A stretch of 64,000 bases of DNA, taken from NCBI GenBank assembly GCA_050084985.1, contig JBITNC010000002.1, forward strand, positions 13,144,001 through 13,208,000, read 5' to 3'. Origin of the DNA: Nageia nagi (lineage: Eukaryota > Plantae > Pinophyta). The notes under the pieces were generated by a model. That model made no database searches and had not been told where the DNA came from. It worked only from the letters and a program-made list of their open reading frames with translations. Both the position numbers and the translations under genes were made by a program. Shown here piece after piece: positions 17,801 through 64,000 of the stretch. The number at the start of each line of letters is the position of its first letter. Position 1 is the first letter of the stretch.

Positions 17801-20800
17801 CAATGAAGAGGAATGTCAATCTCTCCTCTAAAATGCAATGGATCATAATGGCCAACCTTTGAAACCCTTTCATGAACTCATCCACCATTTTTGTTTTCCT
17901 CAAGGCTATCAAGTATCAGAAGTAATTATTCTCATTCTTCCAATTGAATCTCTTCACTATCCTCTTAGTGAACTCATCAAATGAGGTAATGAGTGAGCAC
18001 CCTTATTTTATCACCCTCTACCACCACCACCCTAGGGCATCATCCTCCAAATGTAATGATGCAAAGTAAATTGCATCCTCCTCCACCATGCTAGGGTTTA
18101 AGGTAAAATATGTCTATAATTAATGCAATCATCCCTTAGCTATCATTTTATTTCCATCAAACATAGGAACTTGCATCTTATTGATCTTGTGCTGCAAATC
18201 CCTCTTATTCTCCCATTAGCCTCTTCAATGATGTTGTCCATGTGTTTTGCCTTCTTTCAATGCTAATAGCTCCAAGTAGCCATTGAATTTAATGTCTCTC
18301 CTCATATTTGGCTCCAACATAGTGTATTCCCTAAAGATTTCATTCAACTCCAACATACCAACCACTTTATGCTTCGAAGCCTCCTCAACCTTCTACCCAA
18401 ACATCAGCTTATATGGTCTCAAAATCATCAATTTTTCTTCTAATTTTCCAACATCCTCCTCTAGGTACCTCCCTAAGAGAGAGTTTTCATGCTATGATGT
18501 GAATGAGAACTCTTGAATTTGGCTTCTGTCTAATCCATCAATCTATGATTATTAGAATCCCAATCCCTCATGCTCCTCATCCTCCTCAAGCTATGTTCAT
18601 AATCAATTTTATCTTTCTTATAAGACTCATCTTTCATATCTCCATATGATCATGGGGTTACTTGCCCTTTCCTAACTTGATGTGGGATATCACAGCTCTC
18701 CCTAGCCTGATGTGGGTCCTCTCTCTCACCCATAGCCCCATGTGCATGGTTTATACCTCCCCTAGCTGGTCTTTGATCCTCTATATCCTCTTGATCATAG
18801 TGATGATCCCTTGGCTATCCTATGACCTATTTTTTGCATCTCTTTTTCACCTTAGGCTCTTTAGGATCTCCCAAAAATATGGATAACTTCTAGATCATGT
18901 TGTTTATATCCTTGGACATGTTGTGCATAGTCAAAATTAACTCATTGAATTTCTATTCAAGAGTGGATTCCCATTTTAGAGTGGGGCTTCTCCTTGGATC
19001 CAATCTCTATCTCTCTCCATATGCCTCATGCATAGCCTCTTCATTGCCAGATAACCTTTCTTTTATAGATTCATTGGCCCATTTCTATCTCTCCTCATTT
19101 TGGATGGCCCAATCTAACACCTCCTCAAATATATCGCTCTTACTAGTGGAAAACATCCCCTTTTTACTAGATTTAGTGTAGTAATGATGAATCCTAGGTC
19201 TCATGCATAGGATGATAAGATATAGGGTCTGATACTACTTATGAGGATCCAAAATGAATCTCAAACCAAATATTAGTAACTCAATAAATAAATGCATAAA
19301 CTAGGGTTCCTAATACTCACAACAAGACTTCCATAATACTAATGATGGGCCTCTAAGGAACCAAATACATATACAATGTTGACATCATCTCTCCAAGGCT
19401 TCTACACATACTACCCACACAATGAATTATCACAATGATGATTATACAAGTCTACAACATCAACAATGGCTACAATATGGAAAACTAACATAAACAAATA
19501 TCACAAACATATATGAACAATACAATACTAATGTCCAATGCACAATGGCCTATATTATGATATGAGATGAAATAAAATACAAACCCTAGCTCCTAGAGCT
19601 AGATGTTGGCCTCCAAGGAGCCAACTAAGGTACAACAATATGAAACCCTCATTTAAATGTTGTAAAACCATAGGGTATATTCACTTCCTCAAACTTTGAA
19701 TCCTCTCCACTAAAGGGGCCCTCCTCAAACCCTAGATATCCACTAAAGGAAGAAGTGTATCCTTGAAATGCCATTGGATGGGCTTGGTGACCCATGAAAG
19801 TTGTATATAGTCAAGATGCTAATGCCTACCTACCCTCTAGATGATCCACCTAAGAAGAGTTGCTTAGCATTGCTAAGACTTATTTCTTGAAGGTCTAATA
19901 TAAATGTATAATAATTAAGTCATCCTAATCAATGAGACCCTTGTATTTATTTATACTTTACATCATGTATGATTTTTAGCTCAGGATCATCCCAGACCCA
20001 TATAATCCAACATTGGGATCAAAGAGGTCAAATATGCCAACATGGGGGTCATAATGACCTAGTGTGCCAATGTGGGGGTCATAAAGGCCTTTTAAGCTGA
20101 TGTAGGGATCCTAGAGTGCTCAAGTGCCAACATGGGGGTATGGGACCCTCCCTAATGTTGGGCAAGCATGCTAGTGTCTATCCAATCCTTAAATGCATCA
20201 ATACATCTTGATATTCCCATAATCCAAGATCTCCAATACAATATGAAGCTACCCTACTAGTCAAGAGGGAAATGTCCCACTTGGGGCTCACAATGGGGTC
20301 CATGGGACAAATAAAACTCATATCCTAGTTTACAACAATAAACTACAAAGCGCATGAAAAAGATATAATACGAGGTGACCAAACTCATCCCACTAAAAGT
20401 ACAAGGGGGATGTCACATGACATTTGAAATTTCTCCCAATTATAAATTCAAAATATTAACTATTTATCATAAATTGAAACTACCAAGAAAATTGTTGAAG
20501 GAAAACAAAAAATACTTCATGGTTTTGGGAGAGGTTTTCTTGTAAAATAGGGAAAAAAATAAAAGTTATTAAAATTTATTTCTCTTACTATGGTTTCTAT
20601 GGTAGAATCAATCATGGTTAAAATTGAAATTTGTATGAAATCCATATGAAATCAGTGCCCAACTTTGTATTAGGTTCTCATGTAGATTTTAGGAAGAATA
20701 TTCTTCCATTTTACAAATTAAACAATGGAAAGATGTTATTGATATTGTTACAAATTTGTAATAACAAGTTTTGGGTAAAAAAACCCATTAATTTAACAAG

Positions 20801-20921
20801 TGGTTTTTTTTTTGTCTCAACCAAAAAATATTAAGTATTTGTCATACCTACAAACTTATAACACCTAAAAATATAATAATAATACTATCAACCTAAAGCT
20901 ATAAGGATTAGGTTTCCAACA
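11804..20921 (-). mobile_element. Non-autonomous Copia-type gag-only LTR element, 5' LTR interrupted by gypsy-derived copy 2
   Basis: Perfect TSD ACAAT (11799-11803 / 20922-20926). LTRs 11804-12054 and 14589-14723 + 20423-20921; PBS 14577-14587; PPT 12055-12064; gag relics ~12300-13090; no pol. Confidence 0.85.
14724..20417 (-). mobile_element. Non-autonomous gypsy-derived LTR element, copy 2 (complete)
   Basis: LTRs 14724-15891 and 19240-20417; TSD TTACA/TGACA; PBS-like 19226-19237; PPT at 15894-15903. Gag (17499-17912, with CFYCKKNWEPKH knuckle) and protease (17166-17399); 30-bp repeats ~16350-16670; no RT/IN. Confidence 0.92.
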
Positions 20922-23900
20922 ACAATATCATAAGAGAATAATAATATAACTAAATTATAATGCAATAGATAGTATAAATATTATTGTAAATTCAAACATA
21001 AGATTATACCATAAGAATAGTGGATTGGTGCCATTTGATGAAAGTTGATAAAAAACATAAAGGTAACACAGTAAATGTAATCATTTCCTAATAAATAATA
21101 AATGTAAATGGCATGGCTATCACTAATCATATCATGGAAAAGATATTTGATATTTGAGGAGTTAAAGGTATTTCTAAATTATTGGTAGAAACTCTAAAAA
21201 TAAGGTATCTTGATTAAAACAAATAAATAAATAAGATATATAAGATTAAGTGTAAATATTCCAATGACAAAAGATGATTGAAAGTAGGGAAAATATCACT
21301 AATATATAACACATGGTGTAAATATAACCTATTGAAAGTAATGGAATACATGAAATAGTAAAAATGTTCATAAAAATAACCAATATTGGACTAAATATTT
21401 GAATTTTATAGAATTTCTTAGTATCCATAAATGAGTCTATAAATAGAGATGCTCCATGGGCAAGAAAACCAAACAAGTGAAACACTTAAGAAATCAACTA
21501 ATAACTTGAGTTGAAATGAAGTGTTTGCATAAGTGTATAAAGTTTAATGTATTGTAAAAAATGTGAATTTTGAGATAAGTATTATAATATACTTACACAC
21601 TAGTTTATACAAATAAGGAGAGCTATGTTGTAATTTGAGACAATTTGACTTGTAAATTCGACCTCAAAAATCAATTTCTAGATCTTTACCCAAAAATGCG
21701 GTGACCTAGTGCATTTCATCATAAACACAATTGTGTTTTACCTTTAGATCATATGTGTCCATATCGATTGCATGAGATCATCTTCACATGCAAGTGTGAC
21801 TCTAGATCATGTGCATTCACCTCAAATATGAGTGTGTTTCCTAAACATATATGTTTTTTATCAATTAAAGTGCATTTCATTAGTATTTTCAATTCATGAG
21901 GTTTTTGTATATTTTGTTAGTTTGTATAAGTATTGTGTGATTTGTTAGATTGTTATCTTCATGTATTTGATGAGTAAGCATAGGTTTAATATTTTCTAAT
22001 TTCTTTGTTGTATTGTTGTGAGATATACAAGTCTATATAATGGATTGAATATTTTAATAGCATAGAATATAAAATATCATAGAATAGCATAGATTGATCA
22101 AGTGTAGAAATCCATTAGGGAGTTGTAGATCCAAGACCTCCATTGTACTAAGGCATTGGTCTATCAAATCATGCTCATATTGTTTATATTAATTTGTAGT
22201 TTATGTGTGATGCTTTTATATTAAATTAATATTACTTCAAGTTGCTTCATGGTTCAATGTAGAATTTGGTTAAAGCCAAACTTAAGATCTTGGGAGTAAT
22301 ATCCAGCTCATATATTGTATGTAATTGCTTATGCTGGTTATGTTGAGTTTGCATTAATCTTATCAAGATTATTGCATTGGTAAAAATGAATTTCATCAAT
22401 TATTTATGTAGTCAATTTATTAATATTCTACATGTGGTATCAGAGCTAAGTTGGAGAGTGTGGTTCTAAATCTTGGTTATGGATTTCTTGTAGATGTTTG
22501 TCAAGTCTCTACAAATTTGATTATTTGTTATTCTTGGTATGATGGCTAACAATTACTATGAGTTACAAGTTCTAAAGTTTGATGGAGAGGATTATATTTT
22601 TTAGAACATCAAAATGAATACATTCTTGATTGTCAAAAGGCTTTGGGACATTGTTTTTAATGGGCATAAGGAACCAAAATATTGGAGCAAATTGCATGGA
22701 GAAGAAAGAAGAGAGAAGAAGGACCAACAACATCAAAATTTCTTGGCCCTTCTTGAAATAAGAAAAGGTATTAAAAGAAATATTTTCCCACTCATTTCTA
22801 GTTGTGCAATAGCTATGAATGGATGGAAAATATTTCAAAATATTTTTATGAATGATTGTGAGCTTGTGTGTGATAATCAAAAAGATTATATGAACAAGGA
22901 AGAGCCTTAAATTTTTAAGAGATTTGTAATGAATATTGTATGGAGCATTGTGAAAATATTTTCATAGAAGAGAGATATGTTGATGAAGACATGTATTGTT
23001 TAAAAGGTATGAGAAATTATGATGAAAAAAAATTTCTTATAGAGGAAGAAAAGGAAAATATGTGTGTTGAAGAATCTCTTTCTATTAATGAGCAAGAACA
23101 AATGAGTGTGACATGCTTACAAAGCATGTACAATGATGAAAAATATGAATAATGTATCTTTGGGTAGATAATTGTTGAGGAGAAATCATCTCAAAATTTA
23201 TTTGGTAGAGCATGTCTCATGGAGGAGGCATCAAATCATAATGTTTTTGAAGAGCAAGCAATTCTCATGGAGGATAATGTTGAAGATCCAAATTATTGGG
23301 AAAATAATGATTTTTTTTTAATAAAGTAAACCTAGAAATTGTAAATAATGGAGCAATATTTTTCATGAAATAATGTTATCTTGCGTATGTATAAGAGCAT
23401 TCATCAAGAATGGATGGTTTCTTTATTGGAAAAGAAAATAAAGAAGAAAAAAAACTCACAATGGAGTGTTGTTTGTTTGATAAAGACCATCTATATAAAA
23501 TGGATGGATTAGATTTTGAAGGCCACTTAGATGAAGTGGATTATTTATTTGCGGACCATTTGATTGGAATGTAATGTTGCTTTATTGAAGACCATACACA
23601 TGGGGTGAATGGATATTTGGAAACTAAGTCATTTGGAGTGAATGATGATTATATTGAAGAGGCAATATGGGATATTGATCAAAGAGAGGTCATAGATGAA
23701 GATGAGAAGAAAGTTGTCAACTTTATGTTTGAATTATATGGAGAATATTACTTATCAAGAGTGAAGATTATTTTATGTGAATAATAATATATCATTTATG
23801 AGATAAAAAATGAAATATTAATTGAAGAGATTGATGATATTCAAGTTGTAATGACTATGGAGATCACTCACATTGATTGATAAAAATAAAGAATGTGAGT

Positions 23901-25229
23901 CATCTCATGGAGGCAACATTGTGCAAAAAGGAACCATGGAGGTTTCTTACTATGAATGAAGAAATAATTATTTCAAAATAAAAAACAAGGGAAATAATAA
24001 AGGATCCTACTCAATACATCAAATAAGAGGTGATGTTTTCTTGTTTGATATTGATTTGCTTACTGATGATTTTTTGAGTAGATATTTTGTAGATAGTTTT
24101 GGGAATTTTGTTGTGAATTAGGAAGATGTTGAATCTCTTACCAAGGCATCATTTAAAAATAAAGCCATATTTGAGGATTATCTTATAAATATAACCTTGA
24201 AGAAGAGTCTTCTTGGACTGAAGACAATAGTAGGTAACTTGGGTCTCTTGAACTCAAGAAAAAATAGTGTTGATCACTTATGTAATGTTTTAAAATTTTA
24301 TTAGAAGGAATCATGTACAAAAAGTGATAATGAGTGACTATTTTTGTAAGGTTACATATGTAATTAGTCATTTTATGGATATTTATTGTTTGAAATTTGT
24401 GTAGAAAATTATGAAATTGTAGTGTAGTTTAATCATCTACATGAGATGGTTAATTTTTGTAAATACTCAAGAAGAGTTTCTAGAAAATGAATATTATTTA
24501 AATACCATAATGTAAATGGTGATCATGTGCAAGATTGGTTGATGAGAACAAATAGTTTTGGCTTTGTGAGAATGTTAATTGAAGAGTTGTTTGATGAAGA
24601 GGGATTTGATCATCAAATAGAACTCAGCTATTTGTAGGTAGAAGAAATAGAGATGGATGATAGCCCACATGGAGAGTGGAAGGAGTGCCAACACTAATTT
24701 TTTATTTTTTTATTTTCTAATTCAAAATTGGAGGAAACAAAAAAAGGATATGTTTCTTCCAATCTATGATACTTCTAAACTCTTGGAATGAGGTCTTTCA
24801 ACATCAAGGAGGAGAATGTTAGAATTTGAGATAGTTTGACTTACAAATTCAACCTCAAAATTTAATTTATAGATATCTACATAAAAATTTGGTGACCCAA
24901 TGCATTTCATCATAAATAGAACTACATTTCACCTTTAGATTACAATCATCTATACCGATCACATGTGATCATATCCAAATGTAGGTGCGATTCCAAATTG
25001 TATGTGTTTTCTAAATGTATGTTTATTTTATCAATGAAAGTGTGTTTCATCAGTATTTTCAATTCATAAGATTTTGGCATATTTTGTTAGTTTGTATCAG
25101 TATTGTATGGTTTGTTAGATTGTTATCTTCATGTATTCAATGAGTAAGCATAGGCTTAATATTTTCTAACTTCTTTGTTGTATTGTAGTGAGATCTACAA
25201 GTCTATATAATGCATTGAATACTATAATA

Positions 25230-28200
25230 CATTAGACCCAAAGAGGGATTTTGAGGTGAGCAATTTGAGATAATTTTAGGGAGGCAAATTTGCGGAGACA
25301 TTTTTTAATGTCCCTATTTTTAGGTTTAAGTGGCAATTTCCATGCGGTAGTTGTAAACTACCCTCCAAAAACATAATGAGGTAGTTTTTAACCATCCCTT
25401 TGTGAGAACCAAAAAAAATAAAAAGGTTCGTATTAGGGGTTATACAGAAACTTAAAATATTTTTTACATTTTGAGTTTTTTGGTTGAGGGATTAGAGAAG
25501 AGAAAGGGATATTTTACAAGATGACATGAGAGGAGATGATGCAATGCAAGGTCAGATAGGTACAAGATTCCAAACTAGATTAGATGAGATCATACAAGGG
25601 AAGGCAAGGTCATACGAGGGGAAACATGGTATTATGAGGTGCAAGCAAGTATTCTTTTGTATTTTGTGATCTTATATGCTTTTGTAGTCCATGACCTTAT
25701 ATTCTTGTGTATTTTGCATATATGTCCATACCTTGTATTTTTTTAGAAAATCCATTTTATGTGTATCTTATCAAAAAAAGCTCAGGTCTTATGTATTCTT
25801 TCACATTTTTCATATATATCTATCAAGACACTAACAACCATAACATTTGATTTATAGGAACCAAGTAGATACATTCACACACCCAATTTAGGGTTTATGG
25901 ATATTTTCATAGTGAAAGTTCAAAGCTCCATCAAGATAGCCTACACGAACCATGACATTCAATTTACAAGCACCAAATATATACATCCACACACCCAATC
26001 CTAAGTTTATGGTTATTTCTGTAATAAAAGTTTATACCTCCCTCAAGATAGCCTCCATAAACTAAAACATTCAATTTAGAAGAACCAAGTAGACACATCC
26101 ACACACCCAATTCAAGGTTTATGGGTATTATCTAAGTTCATCATATGATATGAAATTATCTAAATGCAACATGCATATGATATGAAATAAACCCAGTACA
26201 CTATATATAAAATGAAATTATCTAAATACACCAACATATGATACAAAACCTCATGAAGTGATAAAATAGTTAAATATGTAATCTAAAATATCCATCGCAT
26301 TTAGACCTCCCACTAAAATATCTAAATAGACCATGTGATATGGAATTTTATAAGTGTCAAAAATCGATACAAAAATGGTAAGTTGGAAAAAATATGCTTA
26401 TAATACTTACAATTGTAGAACATATTTGAAACTATAGAGCATATTTGAATAATTTGAGTATAATTGTATAATTTTTATCATAATTGTGGTATGCTTTGAT
26501 ATAATTATGCTAAGTATTACAAGCATGATTTTACCAACTTACCAATTTTGGACTGGTTTTTAACACTTTCTTTTGTATTACAAGCATTTGTTTTGTTTGG
26601 GTAAGTATTACAAGTACGCTTTCACCAACTTACCACTTTTGGACTAGTTGTATTACAAGCATAATGCATCTTCCATATTGCAGTCAATGAAACTATGTTT
26701 GCATCATGCATCTTCCATGTTTTGCATACGTGCCTATTAAGTTTTATGTTTCATTTCATTTTTTTTAAAAGTGCTTCTTGGATGTGTGGATATTCCTAAT
26801 TTGTGCTTGTAAATTTAATGTTGTGGTAGCAATACTCTAGAGCATATTTGAATCATTTAAATACACTATATGATGTGATATGAAATGATTTAAATGATAT
26901 GGAATATTTTGTGGGCTACTTCATTGTCTAGCAAGTGACATAATCGGTGCTTTCCTTTACTGGATCCATGCAAGTTTCTGGATCATATGATGTATTTAAA
27001 TTATTTCACATCATATGTTATCATTTAAATATAAGCACAATAAGATTCATTTATGTTCTATATTTATGCTCAAATGATTTAAATATGCTCTACATATTCA
27101 ATTATGCTCAAATGATTTAAATATGCTTTACATATTTAACTATGCTCAAATGTTTCAAATATGTTTTATATCATATAATCTATTTAGATCATTTCATACC
27201 ATATGGTATAGTTGCATCATTTCAGAACATGTGAAGAAGCCCACAGCATGTTCAATTATTTTCTTCTCATCATTTTTTATATACAACAAATCATCCACTT
27301 GGGAACCACATATATTTCCTATGTTTGGCTAAGTATTACAAGCATATTTTTGCCAACTTACCCACTTTTGGACTAGTTTTTTACACTAAAAACATTTTTG
27401 GGTTGAACAAGTGCTTGCCACTTTTGGATTGGTTTTTGACACTCAACAAAATTATGGGTTGAATAGTTGCTTACCACTTTTGGATTGGTTTTTGACATTC
27501 AACAAAATTATGGCTTGAATAGTTGCTTACCACTTTTGGAATGGTTTTTGACACTTAGAAAATTTATTGGTTGAATAGTTACTTTCCTTCTCCAAGCCAT
27601 TTTTTCAACCATTTAGTTTATTTAAATCATTTCATATCACATAATATGGTGTATTTAAGTCATTTCATGTCATATGTAATAATTTCAATATAAGCTTAAT
27701 AAGATTCAAATATGCTTTATACTTTCAATTATGCTCAAATGATTTAATTATGTTCAACAATGCATCATGTCATTAGAGTTGTCACTAAACAATTGTAATT
27801 GTTCAACCCATATATTTTCAAAGTGTCAAAAACCAATCCAAAAGTGATAAGTTGGCATCATTGTTGTACCCATGAAAATGTGTCTATAGCATGCATATTC
27901 CACATTTCATATCATATGGTACAATTTTATTGTTTCATTTCATATCATATTTATCAAATTTTATCAAGGCAATAATAATTGAGGTATCTTTATTGTACAT
28001 TGTTTGTATTTATTGAACCTAATTATATTTGATTTGTTTATTGAAACTTTTACACTTTCATAATGATATGTAATTACTTAATAATGATATAGTGTGCATA
28101 TAATTTTGTTGCTGATGTTAATAATTCAATTTATTTTTTAATTATGCTATGTATTGGAAACTTGCAAGTGAACAATGATTGGTCAAATCCACTAGGTCGT

Positions 28201-28553
28201 CCTTTAGGATCCCATGGTGAACACTATCATTGGGCTCACTATGATTGAGCTCGAGTGCCTCAGGTAATTGAGGATGACTAACCTAGAAGCATTCTTCCAA
28301 ATGCTTCCAAGCTATGCCCCTTTTTTTAAATTTAATCATCAAACAATGATTTAAAATTGCCCCCTTAAATGACAATGTGGTAGTTTAAAATTGCCTCTTT
28401 AAGACTTAAAGCGGCAGTTTAAGGTACTGTATGGCTCTGGTAGATAGTCACCACCATAGGGGGCAACTCTTGCATAGAGGGTGATAAATAATCATTGGTA
28501 AAAGAATTAGAAAATGATTTATAAACTCCACCAAAGGTCCTTTTTGTCTAGTG
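25230..28553. mobile_element. Non-autonomous CACTA (En/Spm) DNA transposon
   Basis: Termini CATTAGACCCAAAGAGG / CCTTTTTGTCTAGTG; 3-bp TSD ATA. Removing it restores the host LTR. Interior is made of direct and inverted repeats; no transposase seen. Confidence 0.88.
27355..27585. repeat. ~54-bp tandem repeat (~4 units) inside CACTA
   Basis: CTTACCACTTTTGGATTGGTTTTTGACACTCAACAAAATTATGGGTTGAATAGTTG repeated. Confidence 0.85.
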
Positions 28554-29779
28554 ATAGCATAGAATATAGAAAATCATAGAATAGCATGGATTGATCAAGT
28601 GTAGAACTTGATTAGGGAGTTGTAGAGCCAAGAGCACCATTGTAATAGGGCATTAATCTATTAGATCATTTTCATATTGTTTGTATTGATTTGTATTTTA
28701 TTTGTGATGCTTTTATATTAAATTGATATTACTTCAAGTTGCTTCATGGTTCAATGTAGTGTTTGGTTGAACCCAAACTTAAGATCTTAGGAGTATTGTT
28801 GAACTCATGTATTGTATGTAATTGCTTCCACAGCTTATGTTGAGTTTGCAACAATATTATTAATATTATTGCATTGGCAAAGTTAAACTTGATTGATTGT
28901 TTATGTAGCCAATCTATTAAGATTCTATAAGATATCAAATCTTTGTTGTAAAAAGGTTTTTATTAATATAGCTATGTAATAACAATATATTAAACTAGGA
29001 TATTGAGACAAAATGTATTGGTGATTCCACAAGAGGGGTAAGTCTATTATTATCATAGTTTGTTGTGATTTTATAACAAGGTTATTTTTCTTATTGTATT
29101 TGAATCATTTCACTTATATTTTGAAGTGTATCACATATCTCATTCTCTCTCTATTTTATAAAATTAGAATCAACTCTTTCATAAAAAATGAGACTCATTA
29201 TCCTTATTTACCCATTTTACAAATACACTAGATAAACCTATAATGATATTTTTAATTAACCTAATCCATGAGTTTTTAAACCAATATAACCAAATTAATC
29301 TTTGTGATTTTGTTATGAATCTTAATTTTGTTAGAAATATATATATATATATATATACTTTGGACAAATTTTGATAGGTCCTACAAACCATTATGTTTAA
29401 AGGACATCAAAATATATTTATTGAATTATGCAATATTTATATACTTAATCTAACTATTACATAAGTGAAGTATAAATATCAAAGATCATCATAAGAGGAA
29501 GACTTGTGTTGTAATCATTTAAGTGCTAAAATAGTTAACAAACCTTTTCATCCTTGGTATATTCAACAAATATATCTTCCTTCCATCATGGTCCTATTAC
29601 AAACATGATATTTAGTTCTAGTAGTTTAGATAAATAATCAATAAGAATGTTATCATTTCTCTTTTTATATTGAATTTCTAAATCAAATTCATTCACCTAC
29701 TTGGCTTATTATTGACTCAAGCTCATTAAGGATAACAAATATTTGATATTTAATGATCTGATAAACAACAAAGTGTTTT

Positions 29780-37963: not shown

Positions 37964-38124
37964 TTCATTGGATTATAATATGTCTCTTGTTGTATATAGC
38001 CTATAAGATGACGATTGAAAACTAGATGTTAATTTTTGCAAAATATGGACTTGCTTTAATGGATGAAATTCCTTTTATATTAATTAAAACCCAAGATTTA
38101 AGAAATATATTTTCAATACTTTGA

Positions 38125-38968
38125 ATAGATAGATTTATAGACAAGCATTGCAGAGTCAAGAGGTAAGGAGTATGTTCAAGCACAAAATGAGAACAAATAA
38201 AATATTAAGCTTGTTTAAATAGGTTTGGATTATCATAAGAAGTATGGTAGTTGATGTTTTCAAAATAAAATAGACTTCAAGATGATAAAGTAATCTAATA
38301 AAAGTACATAAGCTAGTGTAATAGACACAAGAAAAATAGATTGATTTATAGACAAGAATCGCATAGTCAACATGTAAGGAGTATGCTCAAGCATAAAGTG
38401 AGAACAAATAAAGTGTTAAGGTTGTTTAAATAGGTTTGGATTATTATGAAAAGTATGCTAGTTGATGTTTTTAAAATAAAATACACTTCAAGATGATAAA
38501 GTAATCTAACAAAAGTACATAAGCTAGTGTAATGGACACAAGAAAAATGGATTGATTTATAGAAATTGCAGAGTCAAGAGGTAAGGAGTATGTTCAAGCG
38601 TAGAGTGAGAATAAATAAAGTATTAAGATTGTTAAATAGGTTTGAATTATCATGAGAAATATGCAGTTAATATTTTTAAAATAAAATACACTTCAAGATG
38701 ATAAAGTAATCTAATAAAAGTACATAAGTTAGTGCAATAGACACAATAAAAATAGATTGATTTATAGACAAGATTTGCAAAGTCGAGAGCTAAGGAGTAT
38801 GCTCAAGCACAAAGTGAGAACAAATAAAATGTCAAACTTGTTTAAATAGGTTTGGATTATCATGAGAAGTATGCTAGTTGATGTTTTTAAAATAAAATAG
38901 ACTTCAAAAAGATAAAGTAACAAAATAAAAGTACATTAGTGCAATAGACACAAGAAAAATATATTGAT
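38125..38968. repeat. ~210-bp tandem repeat, 4 units
   Basis: Units begin at 38125, 38336, 38547 and 38752 (ATAGATTGATTTATAGACAAG..GTAAGGAGTATG..). Confidence 0.95.
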
Positions 38969-53200: not shown

Positions 53201-55067
53201 CTCATTCAATGTAGCCCATAATGAGGGGACAACAACACCCAATGCCACCTTGACTTTATCAGTCAACATACCATCATACGCAACCCTTATTATTATGTCA
53301 ACTATGATCGAAAACAATATAACACTAGACCTCCCAATAATGATAGCTGATAACACTCTCATTGTGACATTATGAAAGCCCTTGTCTTCCAAAGTGAAAT
53401 CTGAAATCAACAAGGCTGAATGGATGGACCATGCATACCTCTAATACCTCAAGTGATCATTTGGAACACAAGGTTCCATACTCATGGCTATACGTATTTC
53501 CTTGTGGACTAAAAATGCGAGAGGGAATCCTCCAATATTTGTGCAAATGATGTAGCTATCAACAGTCTCTCTTCTTTTTTGTATGCAATTGTTTATGCCA
53601 AGAACAAGATTAGTGATCAACAAAGCTGTATTGAAGAACAAGTCATACCTTCCCAAAGCAAGGAGCTCATTTTCCAAGCTAAAATCCCTATGGATCCATG
53701 GTGCCCAAACTCTCTAAGAGTCTCGACTCATGAATCTCTCTTCGTGGCTCAAATGTGACATGCCTCCTCTCCTCAAGGTCCAACATGAAGTTTCCAAGTC
53801 TTCCAAAGCTCCATGTGAGGGGTTTTATCAAGCCTATCCCAGGCATTGGGTATCCAAGACCCCAAGGATCTCCACAGTATCTTTGGCTCCTTCATCATCC
53901 AATGTGGATCCCATAAGCTTATAGAGTCTCATCATGGCAATCTCCACCTCCTCCAATCCTGATGTGGGGTGCCCAAGCCTCTAAAGGCTCAATGTGGGCT
54001 CCCTAAGCTTTCTCGGACCCAAGGTAGGGTGATCGACCACTTCTTCCTCCAACATGGGATGCCTAGGCCTCCTCATACCCGATGTAGACCATGATGGCTC
54101 CTCCAATCCAACTATGCCCACTCCATGCTCCTTAAACTGCAATGCAGGGCACAAGAGCTCTTCCATACTTGACATCCCCCCTCTAAGATCTCTAGAATGC
54201 AATGTGGGGTGTGGGGACTCCATGACAATCATGGCCCCTCTTGGCTCCTCAAGTTGCAATGTGGCTTCTCCTTCTATCTTATTTTTCTGAAGGCATTTTC
54301 CTCAAACACGTTTGGATATTGATCTAGGATGCCTTGGATCTCGGACGATTGCTCCTTGGCCCCCCCAATATCCAACGTGGGGTCTCCCTTAGCCAATGTA
54401 AAGATGCATATCCCCTTAATAGCTCTTTTATGAATTGTAGCATCCACATTCTTTGCCAAGATCACTTTCGTAATTGCTTCCAATTCATAGCTTGTGGTAC
54501 TAGATTAAGGTGCTATCTCTCGTTTGTTAGAATTTGTAATGAAATATTGTGAATATCTAAACTCCTTGTAAATTCAATTAATCACTTAAGGGTATGTAGA
54601 TACCTTAAGAGATTAATTGAATTCTTTAATATGTAGACTTTGACTTTACCAAAGTGGTTAGTTGGTAGGTTGAAGTTAGGTGATACATTTAATGTAACCC
54701 TAACCTTACCCTTCGGTTAAAGGAAGGTTAGGGAGGTGCTCTCAAGCTATAAATAGAGGGCCTCTCCTCTTGTAAACATATCTAAATCTTGGAGTAAGAT
54801 TACTCTACTTGTTGTGTAGGAGAGAGCAAGAGAATAGTTGTAAGAGAGACATAGATTGAGAATAGAGAACTAGTTGTGGATGTACTCCCAAGGAGGGAGG
54901 AACCACATTATATTGGTGTCATATTGTGTGAATGATGTTCGTAGAATTATAGATATGTTATCTTGAGTGATTATGTTATCTTGTGTACACTTGAGTTTCC
55001 TAGTCTTAGGTCCTAGAGGATTTGTTTAGATATAGTTCAAATCCTTCAATTGGTATCAGAGCCATGT

Positions 55068-55145
55068 TGTGGAAGCTCTTCTTCTAGGTGTAGAAGCTCT
55101 TCTTGGTGTGGAAGCTCTTCTTTTGGTGTGGAAGCTACATCTTGG
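55068..55145 (+). repeat. ~20-bp tandem repeat (GTGGAAGCTCTTCTT..G, 4 units) just after the PBS
   Basis: Direct reading. Confidence 0.85.
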
Positions 55146-58014
55146 AGGTTCTTCATCCTTCTTCATTCTTCATCTTACACCCCATTGGTGAGGTAAATTT
55201 TTTAGAAAAGGTATAAAGTTCCTCCTTATTTGATCATTTTTTTGGATTATTGAATTAGATACTAACATATTTTGTGAGATATTGGAGCTTATTTCTTGCA
55301 AAATATGATGAAAATGACAATGCAAGTCGTATTTTTTACTAACCTCTTATGTTAGTAGCAATTTTTTTTTACAAAAATGCTCAATACATGCTATATTTTT
55401 TAAGAGGATACTATGAAATGCCAATATTTTTACTACCATTTTTTATGTTAGTAGTATTATGTTATTACTATTTGCTTAAAAAATAGTAATATATTATTGT
55501 GACATTTCTCCTACATATACTACCATTTTTTATGTTAATGGTATTTTTTGAAGCATGAATATTTAAAAGTTTGAGAGTAGGACAATTTTTTAGTTCTACC
55601 ACAATTTTAGGGGCACAATAATATATTCAAAGGCTCTATATATATATATATAGATATTTCTTATTTTGTTTTAACTTTGTTTAAAATAATTAAAACAAAA
55701 TTATATATATATTTTTATTTCCATCCAAAATATATATATATCTATTTTTTATATTTTAAATCTGTTTAAAATATAAATCAAAATATATATTTTTTATATT
55801 TTAAATTCGTTTAAAATATCATCAAACATATATATATATATATTTTTAAAATCTATTTAAAAAAAAAATAATCAACAAATATATATATTATAAAATGTTT
55901 AAAAACAGGGGGGGTCACGTTAAATACATTAAAACCATATCAATTTATTAAAATCGTATACAATCAGGGGGGGTCCTCCATGCGCGCGCGGCCCTTGGTG
56001 GCTCCGCCCCCACGTGCCCTCTCCTCCCAACCACCTCCGTGCTCCTCAGACTCCTCTGCCCACCCACGCGACGCTGCTGCAGACCCCCTTTTTTGGATTA
56101 CAGTGCTCCTACCAAACCTGCAACCAGTTCGCCACCCTCCCCCCACGATTGAGGACCGCCTATCGCTGCATGCTACCGATAGAGTTCCACAAATTGATGC
56201 ACCAGCTGCCTGCTACAGATCGAGTCCTTCAGATCCACGTGATGCATGGTGCAACCACAGTTCCATGGTCGGCGGGCTATGCGCAGCGTAGAGGAGGGCA
56301 AGCACGTGTTTGTTTGACACCATGCAGGATGCTCACAGCACCTGCACACGACCCTGGCAATGCTAAGCAGGCACTCGCCCTTCCATGATCCCAGCATATG
56401 CACAAGATGGCTACCTTACACTGTCCACGGCTTGCATAGTGATTGCAGGCCATGCACTTCACCCCGCTTCCATGGACTTCACTGCTCCCAGGATATTCCC
56501 CAGGTTGCAAACACCGTTTCCTGGACTGAAGTGCTCGCTGGATCTACACAACACGGATCAAGGCTCTGTTCTGATTTTTAACATGACCCTCCTCCCTAGC
56601 CGCCCTGACGTCGTGCCTTCGGTGGTCAACAACCGCCCCCCGCGCCTCACGCGACCTCCACCCCTCTACATGGCCTCCTTGCCGCCTTGGACTCACTCTG
56701 CAGTCCAACCTCTCCCACTCCACGTGACTCACCACCCTTCTACACACTTTGGTCTCTCCTGCCACCCCTGCCCAGCTTCTCAACCTCCATGAGGCTTACA
56801 CATGGCCCTTTTTACTTTTCTTTGTCAACCTTTAGTTGTTGGGTATTTATTTTTTTTACCCACTTCAAATTTGATTTGATTTTTTGTCTTAGTCACACTT
56901 AAATATTTAAAGTTTACCCCTTAAAGTGACAACCAGACAACCTCACACTTAAACATAATTTTTTAGCATCCAAGTTGTTAGCACTTTAAGTAAAAATGGA
57001 GGGGATTTTTATCATTTTTTACTTAAAGCTAAATAGATCTTGCATGCTAAATAGATCTTGTATGTTATGCTAAATGGATCTTGCATGCTAAGTTTAAAAT
57101 GCATGCCTCTTAACATTGTTACGATTAAAGCATGCTTAGTACTTAAATTTATAAGTTAAAATGCATGATGCATGTTTAAAACTTAATTTTAAGTCATGGA
57201 CTAATACATGTTTAAGTTATGGATTAATGCTAAATAGGACTTAGCATTTGAAAAATTCATTATTTTTGAACTTGAGCAAAAATATGAAAAATGTAAAAGT
57301 CCTTTAGGGGTTAGTATAAAACCCATTGGACTCAATTTTGGCCTCTTAAGGTTTCAAGTTCATGTGGATGGAGTATTTTCACTTTACTTTATATTTTTGC
57401 ACATTTGCTTTATACTTGCAATACGCAAAAATTTGAAAGTAACCCCTAAAATGAATACATCTGCACGTATTTTCCACAACATGACTTGTTTGGGGAGCCA
57501 CGAGGTGAGGACAGGGTAGACTGGAGCCCTTTTAGTCTGAAGAACCAAGTGGTGGTAAGTCCGTCTTAATTGCCCCTAAGACCTTTGTTGGATTGGACAT
57601 AACTCTATTAGGTGGACAGGCATGTGTGTAGTGATACCACATGTCCGCATGTCCATTCAGGGATTATCCTGATAACCTAAGAGGAAAACTGAAAACCTTA
57701 ATCAAGATAATTAAAATGGTCGGTCCAAGATACGTCGGATCCTTGGAAAATAGTTAGTACTTCTCCTTGTGAGAGTATATTACTGACCAAGGTGAACTAG
57801 TTGAGGACTGGTAGTACCTGGGCTCCACCTTGCGGGCATCCAGGTGAAGGCCTAATTCTATACAAGAAAACAACCCCAACTTTATCCTTCTATGGATCGT
57901 GGTTAATAAATTTGCACATGTAGGACATGTTTGCTTATTAGATGTTTTATTTGTATAGATGGAAAATTGTAAAAGTTTGCATTCTTATTGCATATTTACT
58001 CTTTTTTTGTAGCA

Positions 58015-61000
58015 ATGGTTGAAACCTTCATTCCCAAGCATATACTCGATGGTTCCAACTTTGGAATATGGGAACCTCGTATGAAAGCTGAGTTACAAGC
58101 AAAGAAGCTGTGGCAGACAGTTAGTGAAGACTTGGTCGCTCCTACCGATGAGAAGGCTCTTGAAGTATACAACTCAAAGAATGAGTTAGCAACTTCAATG
58201 ATTTATCGTGCAGTTTCAAATGATGTCCTTCTCATGATTTCTTCATCAACTTCAGCAAAGGAAGCTTGGGATAGGCTAAAGAAAATTTACCTTAGGTCCA
58301 AATTTTCAAGGAGGTTTACCATTCTACAAAAGTTGTTGTAGTATCGACAAAGTGAAGATGAAAGTGCCTCCATCTACTTAAACAAAATCATTGACCTCAG
58401 GACACAATTGGTTGGTTGTGGGTGCAACTGGATCAATGATGAGTTCATGGTCTTCATCATTCTTCAAAGCCTTACTACAAAGTTAAGTAACTTTGTCACG
58501 GTTATGGAAACAAGGCTCGATGATGAAGAAGATGTCATCTCACTTGATAACCTTTCTAGACTTCTTCTGAAGCATGAGAAAACTTTGAACAAGAAAATGT
58601 TGAACCTTTCTCCAAAGGACAATAGCATTGCTCTAGGAGCAACCAAAACTCCTTTCAAGAAAAAGTTCAAACATTATAAATTCAAAGACAACAAGTCCTC
58701 ATCTACCTTCAGGAAGTATGACAAAAAGGGCAACAACAATCATGGCAACTACAGGTAAAGGAATGACAAAGCTGGATCAAGCAATCCAACACCTCAGGAA
58801 AAATTTGATGGAACTTGTAACTTTTGTGGTATCTTTGGGCACAAAGAGTATGATTGTCGCAAAAAGAAATTTGCTAAAAAAGGTAAAGGAAATGCAAATG
58901 TGAGAAATTTCAATAATAGAAAGAAGAACAAGCATACTGCTACTGTTGCCTACTACTCAATGATTCAAACTATTTCAAATGATTGGATTGTTGATTCAGG
59001 ATGCACTAATCATATGTGTTATGAAAAGGATAAGTTTGAAAACTTTCATAAGTACAAGAAGGATGCAGTTGTGATAGGTGATAATACAGTCCTTGATATT
59101 CACGGAATAGGGAGTGTGAAGATTCATGGAAAGACTCTTGATAATGTCTTTTATGTGCCTAAACTAAGGATGAATCTCATCTCCGTGATTCAGATTACAA
59201 GGAAAGGATGCTCATTTGAGTTTACCTTACACTCTTAGAGTGTTAAGAAAGGACTTGCCACCTTGATGAAAGGATCAGTAAAGGATGACCTTTATATTGT
59301 GGATCAAGTACCTTCAAAGATTTGTCTTGCTGCAAATGTTTGTTCAAAAGGTAATCTTTGGCATCAATGATTAGGGCACCTTAACCACAAGAGTATTCAA
59401 GATATGAAAATTCAAGCACTTGTGGAAGGTTTACCTAATATTTCACCCATAATTGATCTTTGTGAAAGGTGCATTCTAGGAAAAATGCATAGGCAAAAGT
59501 TTGAAAAAGATAAGGCAACTCGGGCTACTTGTCCTCTTCAACTTGTGCATTCAGATTTGATGGGTCCTTTTCAGACTAAGTCCCTAGGGGGAGCTTCTTA
59601 TGTTCTGACCTTCATTGATGACTTCAGTAGGATGACATTTGGTTATCTACTTGAGCACAAGGATCAAACTTTTGACAGGTTTAGAGACTTCAAGGCACTT
59701 GTTGAAAATTAAACTGATTTTAAGATCAAGATGCTGAGATCTGATAATGGGGGTGAATATAATAGCAATGAGTTTAACAACTATTGTGTTAAACATGGGA
59801 TTAAACGATAATTCACAATCCCTTACACCCCTCAGCAAAATGGAGTTGCTGAAAGGAAGAATCGCACCATTATGGAAATGGCAAGATGCATGTTGGGTAA
59901 CCTTCCTAGTTTCTTATGGGAGAAGCTGTTCACACTGCTATTCACACCCTAAATAGGTGTCCTACTAAGGCAATTGAAGGTAAAACTCCATATGAAACAT
60001 GGACAAGAAAGAAACCTAACCTCTCACACTTCAAGGTCTTTGGTTGTGATGCATTTGCCTTTATTACCTCAGAGAAAAGAAAGAAGCTAGATAAACGATC
60101 AGAAAAATGCATCTTTGTGGGGTATGATAATCAGCATAGAGGTTACAGGCTCTACTCTTCATCCCATAAAATAGTCTTTATTTCTAGGGATGTCAAGTTC
60201 AATGAACTTTCTGAGAATACGACCTCTCATGCTGAGGTGTCTGATACAGATGATTCTTCGCCTGCACCTAACTGGTTGGATGATCATGTAGAGACGTCAC
60301 CACAAGAGCAAAATTCTCCAGCATAGAGAATTACAAGGAGTATGACCTTGAATAGCTCTTTATTTGCCAAAATTGATAATACACATGAGCCATCAACCTT
60401 CAAAGAAGCTTCCAAGCAAGAGTGTTGGATGGAAGCTATGAAAGTTGAGTATGAGGCACTCATGAAAAATGAAACTTGGGATTTGGTTCCTTATCCCAAT
60501 AAGAAAAATGTGATTGACAATAAATGGATATACAAGGTCAAGTACAATTCTGATGGAAAAATTGAAAAATACAAGGCAAGATTAGTGGCCAAAGGATTCG
60601 CTCAAAAATATGGTATTGATTATGAGGAAACCTTTGCTCCTGTGGCCAAGATACCTACTGTCAGAATAATCCTTGCTCTTTCTACAGCTCAAGGATGGAA
60701 AGCTTTTCAACTTGATGTCAAAAGTGCATTTCTCAATGGTGACTTAGATGTTGAAATCTACATGAATCAACCAGAAGGATTTATTCCAAAAGGAAAAGAG
60801 TCTCTTGTGTGTAAGCTAAAGAAGTCTTTGTATGGACTTAAGCAAGCACCTAGAGCATGGTACAAGAAAATTTCAGGATTCTTTGCAGATATTAGTTTTT
60901 CCAAGTGCTTCTCAGATTCAGATCTATATGTACTCAATCAAGGAAAAGATGTGGTCATAATTATCCTTTATGTGGATGATCTTCTCATAACAGGTAATAA

Positions 61001-61935
61001 TATTGAAATCATCCAAGAGTGCATCTCAAAACTCAAGGCAACATTTGAAATGATTGATCTAGGTCTATTACATTACTATCTTGGGATGCAAGTATACCAA
61101 CACAAAGATTGTACTTATCTTAGTCAATCTAAGTATATATCAGACATCTTGCAAAAGTTTAGAATGGAGGAGTGTAAATATGCTGCAATACCTGTTTCTC
61201 CTAGAATCGTTGTATCATTGAGCTCAGATTCTCAGTTGGCTGATGCTACAGCTTATAGATAATTGATTGGTAGTCTTCTGTATCTGACTATCTCTCGTCC
61301 TGATATTACCTTTGCAGTGAATCTGATGGCACGATTCATGCAAAAAACCATATGTTGAACACCTCAATGCTGTTAAGCAAATCTTGAGGTATGTCGTAGG
61401 GACAAAGGATCTTGCTTTTAAGTATTCCAAAGTGCCCTCAATTATTCTCTCAGGGTTCTCAGATTCTGATTATGGGGGAGATAGAGATGATAGAAAATCA
61501 ACCTCTGCATATGTGTTTAGCATTGGTTCAGGTGCTATCTCTTGGGCTTCTAAGAAGCAACCTACTATGACTCTTTCTACCACCAAAGTTGAATATCAAG
61601 CCATGTCTGTTGCTACCCAAGACACTATTTGGCTGAGGCATCTTTTGAACGAAATTGGGTATAAGCAAAATGGCCCATCTCTTATTTCATCAGATAATCA
61701 ATCGGCTATCTCTTTGGCTAAGAATCCTGTGTTCCATCAGCGAACCAAACATGTAGAAATCCAAGCTCATTTTATCAGGGAGAAGGTTCTAGATGACATC
61801 ATACACTTGCAGTATTATCCATCTACAGAAAACTCTGCTGATTTGTTCACCAAGCCCCTTCTTGAAGCTCAGTTCTGCAAGCTTAGGGCTTCTCTCGGGT
61901 TGGTGAAGTTGCCCTCAAGGGGGAGTGAAGTTTAA
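58015..61935 (+). pseudogene. Copia gag-pol (gag, CCHC, PR, IN, RT, RNase H) with stops and frameshifts
   Basis: LDGSNFGIW; CNFCGIFGHKEYDC; WIVDSGCTNHM; LVHSDLMGP..FIDDFSR; QLDVKSAFLNG, SLYGLKQAPRAW, LYVDDLL; DRKSTSAY, RTKHVE, ADLFTKPL. Confidence 0.95.
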
Positions 61936-61980
61936 ACTTTTGTTAGTGATGATAACTTCACCTCTAAGAGGCCTTTTTGA

Positions 61981-62272
61981 TTGTACATTCTAGACCTCCG
62001 TCGTAAGTTTGCTCTGCATGACAAACTTATTGTACAATTATTATTATAGAGTGTTGATTATTTTATACCTCAATGGTAAGTTTGCTCTGCGTGACAAACT
62101 TGTTGTACATTTTATACCTCCGTGGTGAGTTTACTCTGCATGAGAAACTTATTGTACAAATTTTGAGCATATAATTAATATACCTCTGTGGTAAGTTCAC
62201 TCTGCGTGATGAACTTGTTGTACATTCTATACCTCCATGGTGAGTTTGCTCTGCGTGAGAAACTTGTACAAT
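61981..62272 (+). repeat. Five ~49-bp stem-loop repeat units in the Copia 3' UTR
   Basis: ACCTCNRTSGT-RAGTTYR-CTCTGCRTGA-NRAACTT-..TGTACA; stems start at 62005, 62078, 62127, 62193, 62242. Confidence 0.92.
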
Positions 62273-63331
62273 TTTTATGCTCTATTTAAAATCAACACAT
62301 GTCTATATATAATAGGTGACTATGAGTGATGGCTTGGCATCTCTGTGATGGCTTATAGTGCACCATTGATCAGTTATTTATAAGATAACATTATTTGATT
62401 CTCTTATTTGAATATATGATGCATCTAACTGATTTTGTTTATGAGTTGCTTGTAGCATGCAGGATCTTCTTCAGAAATGCAGGTTACTCACCTTATGAAA
62501 GCAAGCTCATGGAGACTCACATGTCAGCTTAAAGTTGATCAACTACTATGTACAGTGAAACCAGTTGTGGTTAATGATTGTATTGTAAACCATTTTTTGT
62601 CAAATGGTAATGTAGTGAGTCTCATACTAGTTCTCAAAAAGATTCTCAAATATGTAAAAGTTCTCATCTCCACTTGTATCTCTATGGAGGAGAATTCTCT
62701 CTTACTCTCTCTTCTCTCTTCTACGCTCTATCCCAATATTGCATTAAGGGGGAGTGTTAGAATTTGTAATGAAATATTGTGAATATCTAAACTCTTTGTA
62801 AATTCAATTAATCACTTAAGGGTATGTAGATACCTTAAGAGATTAATTGAATTCTTTAATATGTAGACTTTGACTTTACCAAAGTGGTTAGTTGGTAGGT
62901 TGAAGTTAGGTGATACATTTAATGTAACCCTAACCTTACCCTTGGGTTAAAGGAAGGTTAGGGAGGTACTCTCAAGCTATAAATAGAGGGCCTCTCCTCT
63001 TGTAAACATATCTAAGTCTTGGAGTAGGATTACTCTACTTGGTTGTGTAGGAGAGAGCAAGAGAATAGTTGTAAGAGAGACATAGATTGAGAATAGAGAA
63101 CTAGTTGTGGATGTACTCCCAAGGAGGGAGGAACCACATTATATTGGTGTCATATTATGTGAATGATGTTCTTAGAATTATAGATGTGTTATCTTGAGTG
63201 ATTGTGTTATCTTGTGTACACTTGAGTTTCCTAATCTTAGGTCCTAGAGGATTTGTTTAGATATAGTTCAAATCCTTCATCGTTCGACTTCCTTCTTCAG
63301 ATTCAAGGTTACGTTCTCCTTGAAACCCTCT

Positions 63332-64000
63332 TATAAATTGTATGATAATTGAACTATAACATGAACAACTCTAAGCTTCCAAGATCACATGAAAGCTCAC
63401 AATATACATCTAACAAACTCACAAAGCAATCTCATAAAGATAACATAAGATGTAAGTGGTTCCTCCAACTAGGAGTACATCCACTAACTATATCTCTCTT
63501 AATCTCAAATATAAACTCTTACAATTATCTTAACTCATCTCCTAAACACTATCCTATAGCATAGCTTTACTCCACCAATTGATGTGTGATCACAAAAAGA
63601 GAGCCTTCTATTTATAGGTCAAAATCCCTCTTTAGATCACCCTTTTATCTAATGTACAAAAGCATGACATACACATCCTTTTACCCAAGGGGCATGCTTA
63701 TGATATGGACTGTAGGACAAGCTACATTATCATATTCACTTAAATACTTAAGGTATTAAATGATACCTTTAAGTATTAGTGAACTTACATAGAAGATTAT
63801 TACATAACCTTTACAATAATGCATTATATATTCCAACACTTCCTCTTAATGCAATATTGGGATAAAGCAAATAAGAGAGAAGAAAGAGAGAAAGTAAGAG
63901 AGTTCACTTCTAAATAGATACAATGGAGATGAGAACTTTATACATATTTGTGAAGTAATAAAGATCTAGTTTGAGGCTCACTATTTTGCCAAATACTATT
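63332..64000 (-). mobile_element. 3' end of a second, diverged Copia of the same family (LTR ~63332-63838, PPT, 3' UTR)
   Basis: 63839-63950 is the reverse complement of ~62650-62754 (TTAATGCAATATTGGGATA..TGGAGATGAGAACTTT); LTR shares GTGGATGTACTCC..GAGGAACCAC. Confidence 0.85.

What the first reader, a model, noticed from the sequence alone, without database searches (positions are those of the whole stretch)
61981..62272. Array of five covarying hairpins with an invariant loop, each containing a 5'-splice-site/U1 consensus, in the Copia 3' UTR
Seen: all five units keep the loop CTCTGCRTGA. The stem is AAGTTTG/CAAACTT in units 1-2 but AAGTTCA/TGAACTT in unit 4, a double compensatory change; units 3 and 5 use a G-U-compatible GAGTTT/AAACTT. 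A mini-hairpin ACC-N5-GGT precedes the stem in four units, and a TGTACA palindrome separates units, with unique spacers after units 1 and 3. Every unit also contains GTAAGT or GTGAGT, the donor consensus, half-buried in the stem. Known: U1 binding to 3'-UTR donor-like sites modulates polyadenylation in some viruses, and hairpin arrays act as protein-binding or export elements. Inference: a selected multivalent RNA element controlling 3' processing, export or packaging.
Basis: partly seen in the sequence, partly recalled or inferred. Interest (0 to 1): 0.8.

Follow-up and report, generated by a model that had tools for sequence, protein, structure and literature searches.

The report
Conserved hairpin modules in Copia 3'UTR
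A plant retrotransposon carries, just after its protein-coding region, five copies of a short hairpin-forming module that nearly all of its relatives examined also keep at the same spot; it likely serves as a protein-docking site on the element's full-length RNA, and the splice-site-like letters inside it are likely a side feature.

Summary
The five units are real (61994-62265) and lie between the pol stop and the polypurine tract of a full-length, decayed Copia element of a very high-copy plant family. Across relatives the fold is a 6-bp stem, one bulge, 3 bp and a 5-nt loop, with a small side hairpin; the proposed 7th pair is unpaired in 33 of 37 units. The 'double compensatory' TTG/CAA versus TCA/TGA change is largely methyl-CpG decay of CG/CG. 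The broader inference survives. The unit sits at the same place in 28 of 30 relatives (1-3 copies), diverges as slowly as protein-constrained sites, and its lineage-level changes fall on paired partners. Relatives also carry a second repeat type, lost here, that shares AGTT-N8-GYGAGGAACT but has no donor motif (1 of 79) and folds no better than shuffles. A multivalent U1 array is therefore unlikely. Best reading (0.45): a selected, copy-number-variable RNA module for export or packaging of full-length RNA. Rivals: neutral repeat, DNA regulatory repeat, single U1 site. Tandem arrays in this position are known and of unknown function; evidence of constraint on one is the modest novelty.

The parts
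54525..55048 (+). 5' LTR of the Copia element (524 nt); TSD TCGTT at 54520-54524
   Evidence: 97.9% identical to 62755-63279 (10 substitutions, 1 indel)
55051..55062 (+). primer binding site, tRNA-Met type (label recalled from general knowledge)
   Evidence: read directly
58018..61935 (+). gag-pol, broken by several stop codons and frameshifts; order gag, protease, integrase, RT, RNase H (Copia)
   Evidence: Retrotran_gag_2, Pol_BBD, gag_pre-integrs, rve, RVT_2
61917..61925 (+). internal purine tract identical to the true PPT, overlapping the end of pol; kept in relatives even where it no longer lies in the reading frame
61936..61981 (+). conserved block between pol stop and first unit (as conserved as the unit itself)
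61994..62028 (+). unit 1 (side hairpin broken; main hairpin 7+2 pairs)
62067..62101 (+). unit 2 (side hairpin plus main hairpin, 7+2 pairs)
62116..62150 (+). unit 3 (side hairpin plus main hairpin, 6+3 pairs)
62182..62216 (+). unit 4 (side hairpin plus main hairpin, 7+2 pairs; A62199 and T62210 are CpG-decay states)
62231..62265 (+). unit 5 (6+3 pairs; sibling contigs carry 3 more bases after 62263 that give a G-C closing pair)
62273..62745 (+). distal 3' UTR, 70-95% alike in relatives
62746..62754 (+). polypurine tract
   Evidence: read directly; abuts the LTR start
62755..63279 (+). 3' LTR; TSD TCGTT at 63280-63284
63107..63137 (+). conserved LTR hairpin about 130 nt after the TATA box (also 54876-54906) that holds the same GAGGAAC word as the relatives' array units
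63344..64000 (-). LTR and end of the 3' UTR of a second family member (main clade); its array lies beyond the window
   Evidence: 86-88% to L012, L013, L044

Best explanation
The array is five copies of a module that this Copia family keeps just after the pol stop, and it likely acts as a folded RNA docking site for a protein that exports or packages the element's full-length RNA. Each module is predicted to fold into a bulged hairpin (nine pairs, 5-nt loop) with a small side hairpin, closed in single-copy relatives by a third helix into a three-way junction. Shown: position, family-wide presence, copy-number variation (1-5), slow divergence, partner-coupled changes. Inferred: that the fold forms in vivo, that selection rather than mutation bias keeps it, and that a protein binds it. 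Guessed by analogy: that the job is export or packaging. Relatives fill the rest of the array with a second module that shares AGTT and GYGAGGAACT; this lineage lost that module and multiplied the first, which would fit interchangeable binding sites whose number matters more than their exact form.
For: Present at the same place in 28 of 30 non-redundant relatives with a 3' flank, and the other 2 have related hairpin units. Net divergence main versus divergent clade 0.045 (95% 0.006-0.096), against 0.162 (0.103-0.235) at four-fold sites and 0.053 at first and second codon positions of RNase H; 5th percentile of 417 overlapping 35-column windows of the distal UTR. 89.6% of cells paired over 18 pairs; covariation score reached by 6 of 500 shuffles. 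The 4 clade-fixed differences inside the model fall on 2 partner pairs (P about 0.003 if random). All five window units keep 9 of 9 pairs, 43 of 45 Watson-Crick; a methylation-weighted neutral simulation gives that in 5% (G-U allowed) and 0.4% (Watson-Crick count) of runs. Pair states at the stem base: A-U, G-C, U-A, G-U. Position matches the CTE/RTE/MTE export elements of simple retroviruses and mouse retrotransposons (PMC11379458, PMC12786077, passages).
Against: The second module (79 units) folds no better than shuffles (mean z -0.1), and the first shows no strand preference (mean z -1.31 on +, -1.28 on -; 19 of 39 better on +). The measures least fooled by relatedness are not raised (pairs with two-sided change 392 of 500 shuffles, pair types 428 of 500). 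One of the two partner-coupled changes in the divergent clade leaves a T-C mismatch, and L003 unit 1 has a C-A mismatch. The block before the array is equally conserved (0.030), and 2 of 12 non-overlapping distal windows are about as conserved (0.040, 0.075 versus 0.060; 0.076 is close), so the constraint is not unique to the hairpin. 98 of 170 departures from the column majority are CpG/CHG-type changes. Template switching can perfect inverted repeats without selection (PMC3820800, listing and start of abstract only). The simulation uses a tree and rates I chose. No Rfam family matches the array. No functional data.
Confidence: 0.45

Rival explanations
1. A neutral, hypervariable tandem repeat: a short unit flanked by TGTRCA repeats is duplicated and lost during reverse transcription, CpG/CHG decay makes most differences, and template switching within the hairpin repairs pairs without selection.
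For: Copy numbers 1-5 (first module) and 0-8 (second), with different junctions in L002, L003, L015/L019 and the window; 98 of 170 departures are methylation-type; the second module does not fold better than shuffles; such arrays are common between pol and the 3' LTR and are family-specific (PMC11963269, passages).
Against: Divergence at a quarter of the four-fold rate; no relative with a 3' flank lacks units (0 of 30); the two modules keep the last 10 nt identical while 6 of the 8 middle bases and the flanks differ; few indels inside the main hairpin (2 units of one copy, L025).
Confidence: 0.22
2. A DNA-level regulatory repeat: dyad-symmetric sites (AGTT-N8-GYGAGGAACT) for a host transcription or chromatin factor, like the palindromic repeats of Sireviruses, possibly left from an older LTR captured between two identical purine tracts.
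For: The sequence shared by both modules is kept although its pairing partner differs; no strand preference in folding; the UTR is bracketed by two identical purine tracts; Sirevirus palindromes occur in the LTR and near the env-like gene and are taken as cis-regulatory (PMC4728375, passages).
Against: Lineage-level single changes in stems mostly give G-U on the + strand (P1 C to T, stem-base A to G, second-module A to G and C to T; counted by eye, about 5 against 1), which matters to RNA and not to duplex DNA; arm sequences change together rather than staying fixed; no conserved TATA next to the array (by eye).
Confidence: 0.2
3. A U1 snRNP site: the G|GTAAGT in the first module binds U1 to suppress premature cleavage in the A/T-rich 3' UTR, or serves as a real splice donor; the window's five copies would multiply it.
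For: GTRAGT in 29 of 39 first-module units, GGTAAGT in 24; about 2% chance per 46-nt unit; only 7 GTRAGT in the whole element, 5 of them here; YAG|G acceptor-like sites at 62313, 62460 and 62480; U1 suppresses premature termination in the Arabidopsis Copia element EVD (PMC5580714, passages).
Against: The five copies descend from one unit, so they are one observation; the motif is the 3' arm of the side hairpin plus the 5' arm of the main stem, which explains its conservation and would hide it from U1; GTTAGT or GATTAGT in 7 units including a whole clade, no first-module unit in L027 and L024 copy 2, and 1 of 79 second-module units has it.
Confidence: 0.1

Closest known systems
Tandem-repeat arrays between pol and the 3' LTR of plant LTR retrotransposons (Retand, Ogre/Tat; PMC11963269 and PMC6317226, passages; Macas 2009, title in reference list only)
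   Same: Same position, family-specific units of tens of bases, variable copy number, function unknown.
   Different: Those described are mainly Ty3/gypsy non-chromoviruses with kilobase regions and antisense ORFs; this is a Copia with an 820-nt UTR, a short array of two related module types, and signs of constraint on a fold.
Sirevirus palindromic repeats (PMC4728375, passages)
   Same: Copia elements, repeated symmetric motifs, hairpin-forming, variable in number, arms more conserved than centre.
   Different: Mostly in the U3 promoter region and GC-rich perfect palindromes; here the units are in the internal 3' UTR, bulged, with a side hairpin.
CTE of MPMV, RTE of IAP, MTE of MusD (PMC11379458, PMC12786077, passages)
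   Same: Structured non-coding element between the last gene and the polypurine tract, on the full-length RNA.
   Different: No sequence or Rfam match; those are single 160-410-nt folds that use NXF1; this is a variable array of 35-50-nt modules in a plant, and no export activity is shown.
U1-protected full-length RNA of Arabidopsis Copia (EVD/ATCOPIA93; PMC5580714, passages)
   Same: A donor-type motif in a plant Copia element that could hold U1 against premature termination.
   Different: In EVD the site is the donor of a real intron at the protease; here it is after the pol stop, predicted to be base-paired, and not kept in all clades.

Membership tests
Ty1/copia LTR retrotransposon | LTR pair with TSD, PBS, PPT; integrase before RT | tested here: met
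pol-to-3'LTR tandem-repeat arrays of plant LTR retrotransposons | head-to-tail repeats between pol and PPT | tested here: met
pol-to-3'LTR tandem-repeat arrays of plant LTR retrotransposons | family-specific unit with variable copy number | tested here: met
   model R1 finds it only in family loci (33 hits under E 0.01, none in the 29-57% identity Copia loci)
Structured cis-acting RNA element | conservation above neutral sites | tested here: met
   (0.045 versus 0.162), but not clearly above all neighbouring UTR
Structured cis-acting RNA element | significant covariation | tested here: inconclusive
   a few partner-coupled events; pair-type measures not above shuffles; R-scape not available
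Structured cis-acting RNA element | fold preferred on the transcribed strand | tested here: not met
   19 of 39 units fold better on +; second module 18 of 79
CTE/RTE/MTE export elements | position between last gene and PPT | tested here: met
CTE/RTE/MTE export elements | match to the known sequence/structure models | tested here: not met
   none of 6 weak Rfam hits overlaps 61975-62280
CTE/RTE/MTE export elements | promotes export of unspliced RNA | not testable with these tools
   needs a reporter assay
5' splice site / U1 site | GTRAGT consensus kept across the family and across array units | tested here: not met
   29 of 39 first-module units, 1 of 79 second-module units, changed in one clade
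5' splice site / U1 site | splice junctions or U1-dependent 3'-end choice | tested here: inconclusive
   0 of 11 listed joints start at these GTs, but the runs are contigs and only guessed to be RNA
Sirevirus-type LTR palindromes | located in the U3 promoter region before the TATA box | tested here: not met
   array lies 490-760 nt before the 3' LTR

The most novel reading that the evidence does not exclude
A plant Copia family uses a modular 3' UTR export or packaging signal built from two interchangeable hairpin types that share GYGAGGAACT; the same GAGGAAC word sits in a conserved, covarying hairpin of the LTR R region, so one protein (Gag nucleocapsid or a host export adaptor) would bind both ends and the array of the full-length RNA and tell it from the short gag RNA. 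It would be the first defined RNA export/packaging element of a plant LTR retrotransposon and a function for the unexplained pol-to-LTR tandem arrays.
Probability: 0.15. Interest if true: 0.75.

Novelty: new variant of a known kind. Interest (0 to 1): 0.42.

Why it matters
Tandem arrays between pol and the 3' LTR are common in plant retrotransposons, and a 2025 survey says their origin and function are unknown (PMC11963269, passage); a 2025 review says RNA export of plant LTR retrotransposons has not been studied directly (PMC12786077, passage). A short, family-wide, constrained module in a family with very many copies is a tractable handle on both questions: thousands of genomic copies would allow a strong covariation test and the 35-nt unit is easy to probe. 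The case also shows how methyl-CpG decay of a CG/CG stem mimics compensatory change in plant repeats.

Tried and rejected
No whole genome is held for this window, so no genome-wide copy set could be drawn. Exact-pattern scans found nothing in viral contigs or metagenome contigs; relatives have TT at the place where my pattern asked for TC. Protein scans of viral contigs found no relative. Rfam: no hit on the array. Sequencing runs: no RNA holder listed. Four runs guessed to be RNA were laid on 61880-62780: 11 joints listed, none GT..AG and none starting at the five GTs; contigs show presence, not absence, so this is not counted as evidence. The 7-bp stem with 10-nt loop was rejected. A long-range pairing with a 9-nt complement at 55216 was considered and dropped: 0 such sites in 11 long family loci, though few of them reach the matching part of the leader. 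Resemblances to hammerhead, IRE, Smaug, Roquin, k-turn, Pumilio and heat-shock motifs were compared by eye from memory; none fitted and none was tested by a tool beyond Rfam. The second module is absent from the window. The family could not be matched to a named pine family from the descriptions in PMC3762812 (passages; no sequences seen). Earlier scan notes held nothing on this sequence or place.

Full report
Observation. The five units exist. A degenerate 24-nt pattern matches at 62005, 62078, 62127, 62193 and 62242 and nowhere else in the window at up to 3 mismatches; 100 shuffles give none. The side hairpin ACC-N5-GGT is intact in 4 of 5, TGTACA occurs six times around the units, and spacers are 38, 14, 31 and 14 nt. 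The stretch folds at z -5.05 on the + strand and -3.19 on the - strand; the repeats inflate both. None of 6 weak Rfam hits in 61800-64000 touches the array.

Context. The array lies 60-330 nt after the pol stop of a full-length Copia element: LTRs 54525-55048 and 62755-63279, 97.9% alike, TSD TCGTT, gag-pol broken by stops and frameshifts. The family is very abundant: 13,964-28,732 contigs per run lay on 61700-62900 in four DNA runs. Many holders are air metagenomes, and the best named protein hit is from Cryptomeria at 51%; a wind-pollinated, large-genome plant, probably a conifer, is my inference. A second family member lies on the - strand from 63344 to the window end, 86-88% like L012, L013 and L044; its array is out of view.

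Relatives. A protein scan of metagenome contigs gave 74 loci, 36 of them at 60% identity or more. A conserved anchor after the pol end was found in 38 copies including the window. I dropped 5 duplicates and 2 copies cut by a contig end, leaving 30 relatives; L005, L009, L026 and L060 lack the 3' flank. 28 of 30 carry the window's unit (type A) at the same place: 23 once, 4 twice, 1 three times. The other 2 (L027, L024 copy 2) have related hairpin units. 27 of 30 also carry a second unit (type B, 79 units, up to 8 per copy) that is absent from the window. A and B agree at 16 of 22 core positions: AGTT and the last 10 nt are identical, while 6 of the 8 middle bases and the flanks differ. A covariance model of A finds 33 hits under E 0.01 in 63 sources, all in family loci or the window. 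On the tree the window is sister to L001, which has one A and three B, so this lineage lost B and multiplied A.

The fold. In natural copies such as L016:1548-1607 the unit forms a 6-bp stem, a bulged G, 3 bp and a 5-nt loop, next to the side hairpin, and both are closed by TTGTAC/GTACAA into a three-way junction. On 37 of the 39 A units (2 with nearby indels left out) 89.6% of cells pair; RNAalifold gives the two hairpins but not the closing helix. In the window, units 3 and 5 use the 6+3 register and units 1, 2 and 4 a 7+2 register, all with nine pairs.

The claimed compensatory change. Most relatives have CG at stem positions 6-7. TG (units 1, 2, 5) and CA (unit 4) are its two deamination products. 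Among contigs laid on unit 4, G at 62199 makes up 84-100% of depth in the three runs that cover it, and one contig also has C at 62210, which gives an intact CG/CG (same contig inferred from equal depth). So TCA/TGA is CpG decay. Over all 39 units, 81 of 170 departures from the column majority are CpG-type and 17 CHG-type. The R in the 'invariant loop' is also a CpG.

Evidence for selection. Net divergence between the main clade (19 copies) and a divergent clade (5 copies) is 0.045 (95% 0.006-0.096) for A, 0.162 (0.103-0.235) at four-fold sites, 0.053 at first and second codon positions, 0.084-0.104 in the distal UTR and 0.084 for B. Summed over two clade comparisons A is at the 5th percentile of 417 overlapping distal windows. 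The 4 clade-fixed differences inside the 18-pair model fall on two partner pairs (random chance about 0.003): one swaps T-A for A-T, the other leaves a T-C mismatch. In the window's lineage C-G became T-A at pair 6/19 (no other letter listed at 62083 or 62096), and siblings of unit 5 close the stem with G-C instead of A-T (one contig in each of 3 of 4 runs); L025 has T-A there. A neutral simulation with methylation-weighted rates keeps all five units at nine pairs in 5.3% of runs and at 43 or more Watson-Crick pairs in 0.4%; the tree and rates are my choice.

Evidence against. B units fold no better than shuffles (mean z -0.1) and A units fold alike on both strands (-1.31, -1.28); arrays of six copies were not consistently more stable than control stretches. 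Two-sided pairs and pair types are not above shuffles (392 and 428 of 500). The block between the stop and the array is as conserved as A (0.030), as are 2-3 of 12 non-overlapping distal windows. Most sampled copies are old and decayed, so power is low. Template switching can extend inverted repeats without selection (PMC3820800; listing and start of abstract seen).

The donor motif. GTRAGT is in 29 of 39 A units and 1 of 79 B units; 7 A units, including the divergent clade, have GTTAGT or GATTAGT. It is made of the 3' arm of the side hairpin and the 5' arm of the main stem. Chance per unit is about 2%, and there is precedent: U1 suppresses premature termination in EVD (PMC5580714, passages). 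A single protective site cannot be excluded, but a multivalent U1 array is not what the family shows.

Mechanism. I commit, at 0.45, to a selected RNA module on the full-length RNA that binds a protein for export or packaging. The position matches CTE, RTE and MTE (PMC11379458, PMC12786077; passages). Plant Copia elements make a short gag RNA, in EVD ending early in integrase (PMC5580714, passages; BARE pools in PMC3735527, passages), so a 3' element would mark the full-length RNA; whether this family does so was not tested. GAGGAAC occurs 93 times on the + strand and 8 times on the - strand in 161,737 bases of family loci, mostly in the arrays and in a conserved LTR hairpin 120-135 nt after the TATA box whose inner stem varies in step (CTCC/GGAG, CTCCC/GGGAG, CTCTC/GAGAG; 16 distinct copies). 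That link is a lead only. Rivals: neutral repeat 0.22, DNA regulatory repeat 0.20, U1 or splicing 0.10.

Comparison and novelty. It belongs to the known class of pol-to-3'LTR tandem arrays, whose function is called unknown (PMC11963269, abstract and passages; PMC6317226, passages). It is not a Sirevirus-type U3 palindrome (PMC4728375, passages) and not shown to be a CTE. Searches listed no paper describing this module; the library lacks most subscription papers, I read passages only, and I opened no supplements, where repeat-library sequences could hold it. Verdict: real, partly misread, a new variant of a known kind with modest evidence of structural constraint; interest 0.42.

Noticed in passing
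window 61899-61970 (+): The pol end holds a purine tract identical to the true PPT (61917-61925) and two GTGAAGTT copies complementary to AACTTCAC 30-50 nt downstream, so alternative helices could hide the tract. In the divergent clade this block is kept although it has become separated from the rest of RNase H by about 290 nt.
   Followed up: partly
window 54876-54906 and 63107-63137 (+); 63484 (-): Conserved LTR hairpin 120-135 nt after the TATA box with an inner stem that varies in step across 16 copies and ends in GAGGAAC, the word shared with the relatives' array units.
   Followed up: partly
window 55063-58017 (+): Unusually long (about 3 kb) leader before gag; 57270-57890 is conserved in relatives (76-88%) and a T-rich stretch ending in TAG precedes the gag ATG in the window and in most of six relatives, which looks like an intron acceptor; a donor-like GGTGAGGTAAAT lies near 55190.
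   Followed up: partly
window 62801-62853 and 54571-54623: Near-perfect 21-bp inverted repeat in the U3 part of both LTRs (weak miRNA-model hits only).
   Followed up: no
L013 and L022, L024: Tandem partial copies in which RNase H end plus 3' UTR plus LTR (or part of it) is repeated head to tail.
   Followed up: no
window 62135-62169: In all four runs guessed to be RNA, a long contig carries this 35-nt piece of unit 3 between unrelated sequence (loose ends), perhaps a host transcript with a fragment of the repeat.
   Followed up: no
window 38124-38968: Four copies of a 211-nt tandem repeat (86% matches), unrelated to this finding.
   Followed up: no
protein hits P0012, P0031, P0036, P0038: Plant proteins named 'secreted RxLR effector protein 161-like' match the retrotransposon RNase H at about 50%; the name looks like a misannotation of Copia pol fragments.
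   Followed up: no
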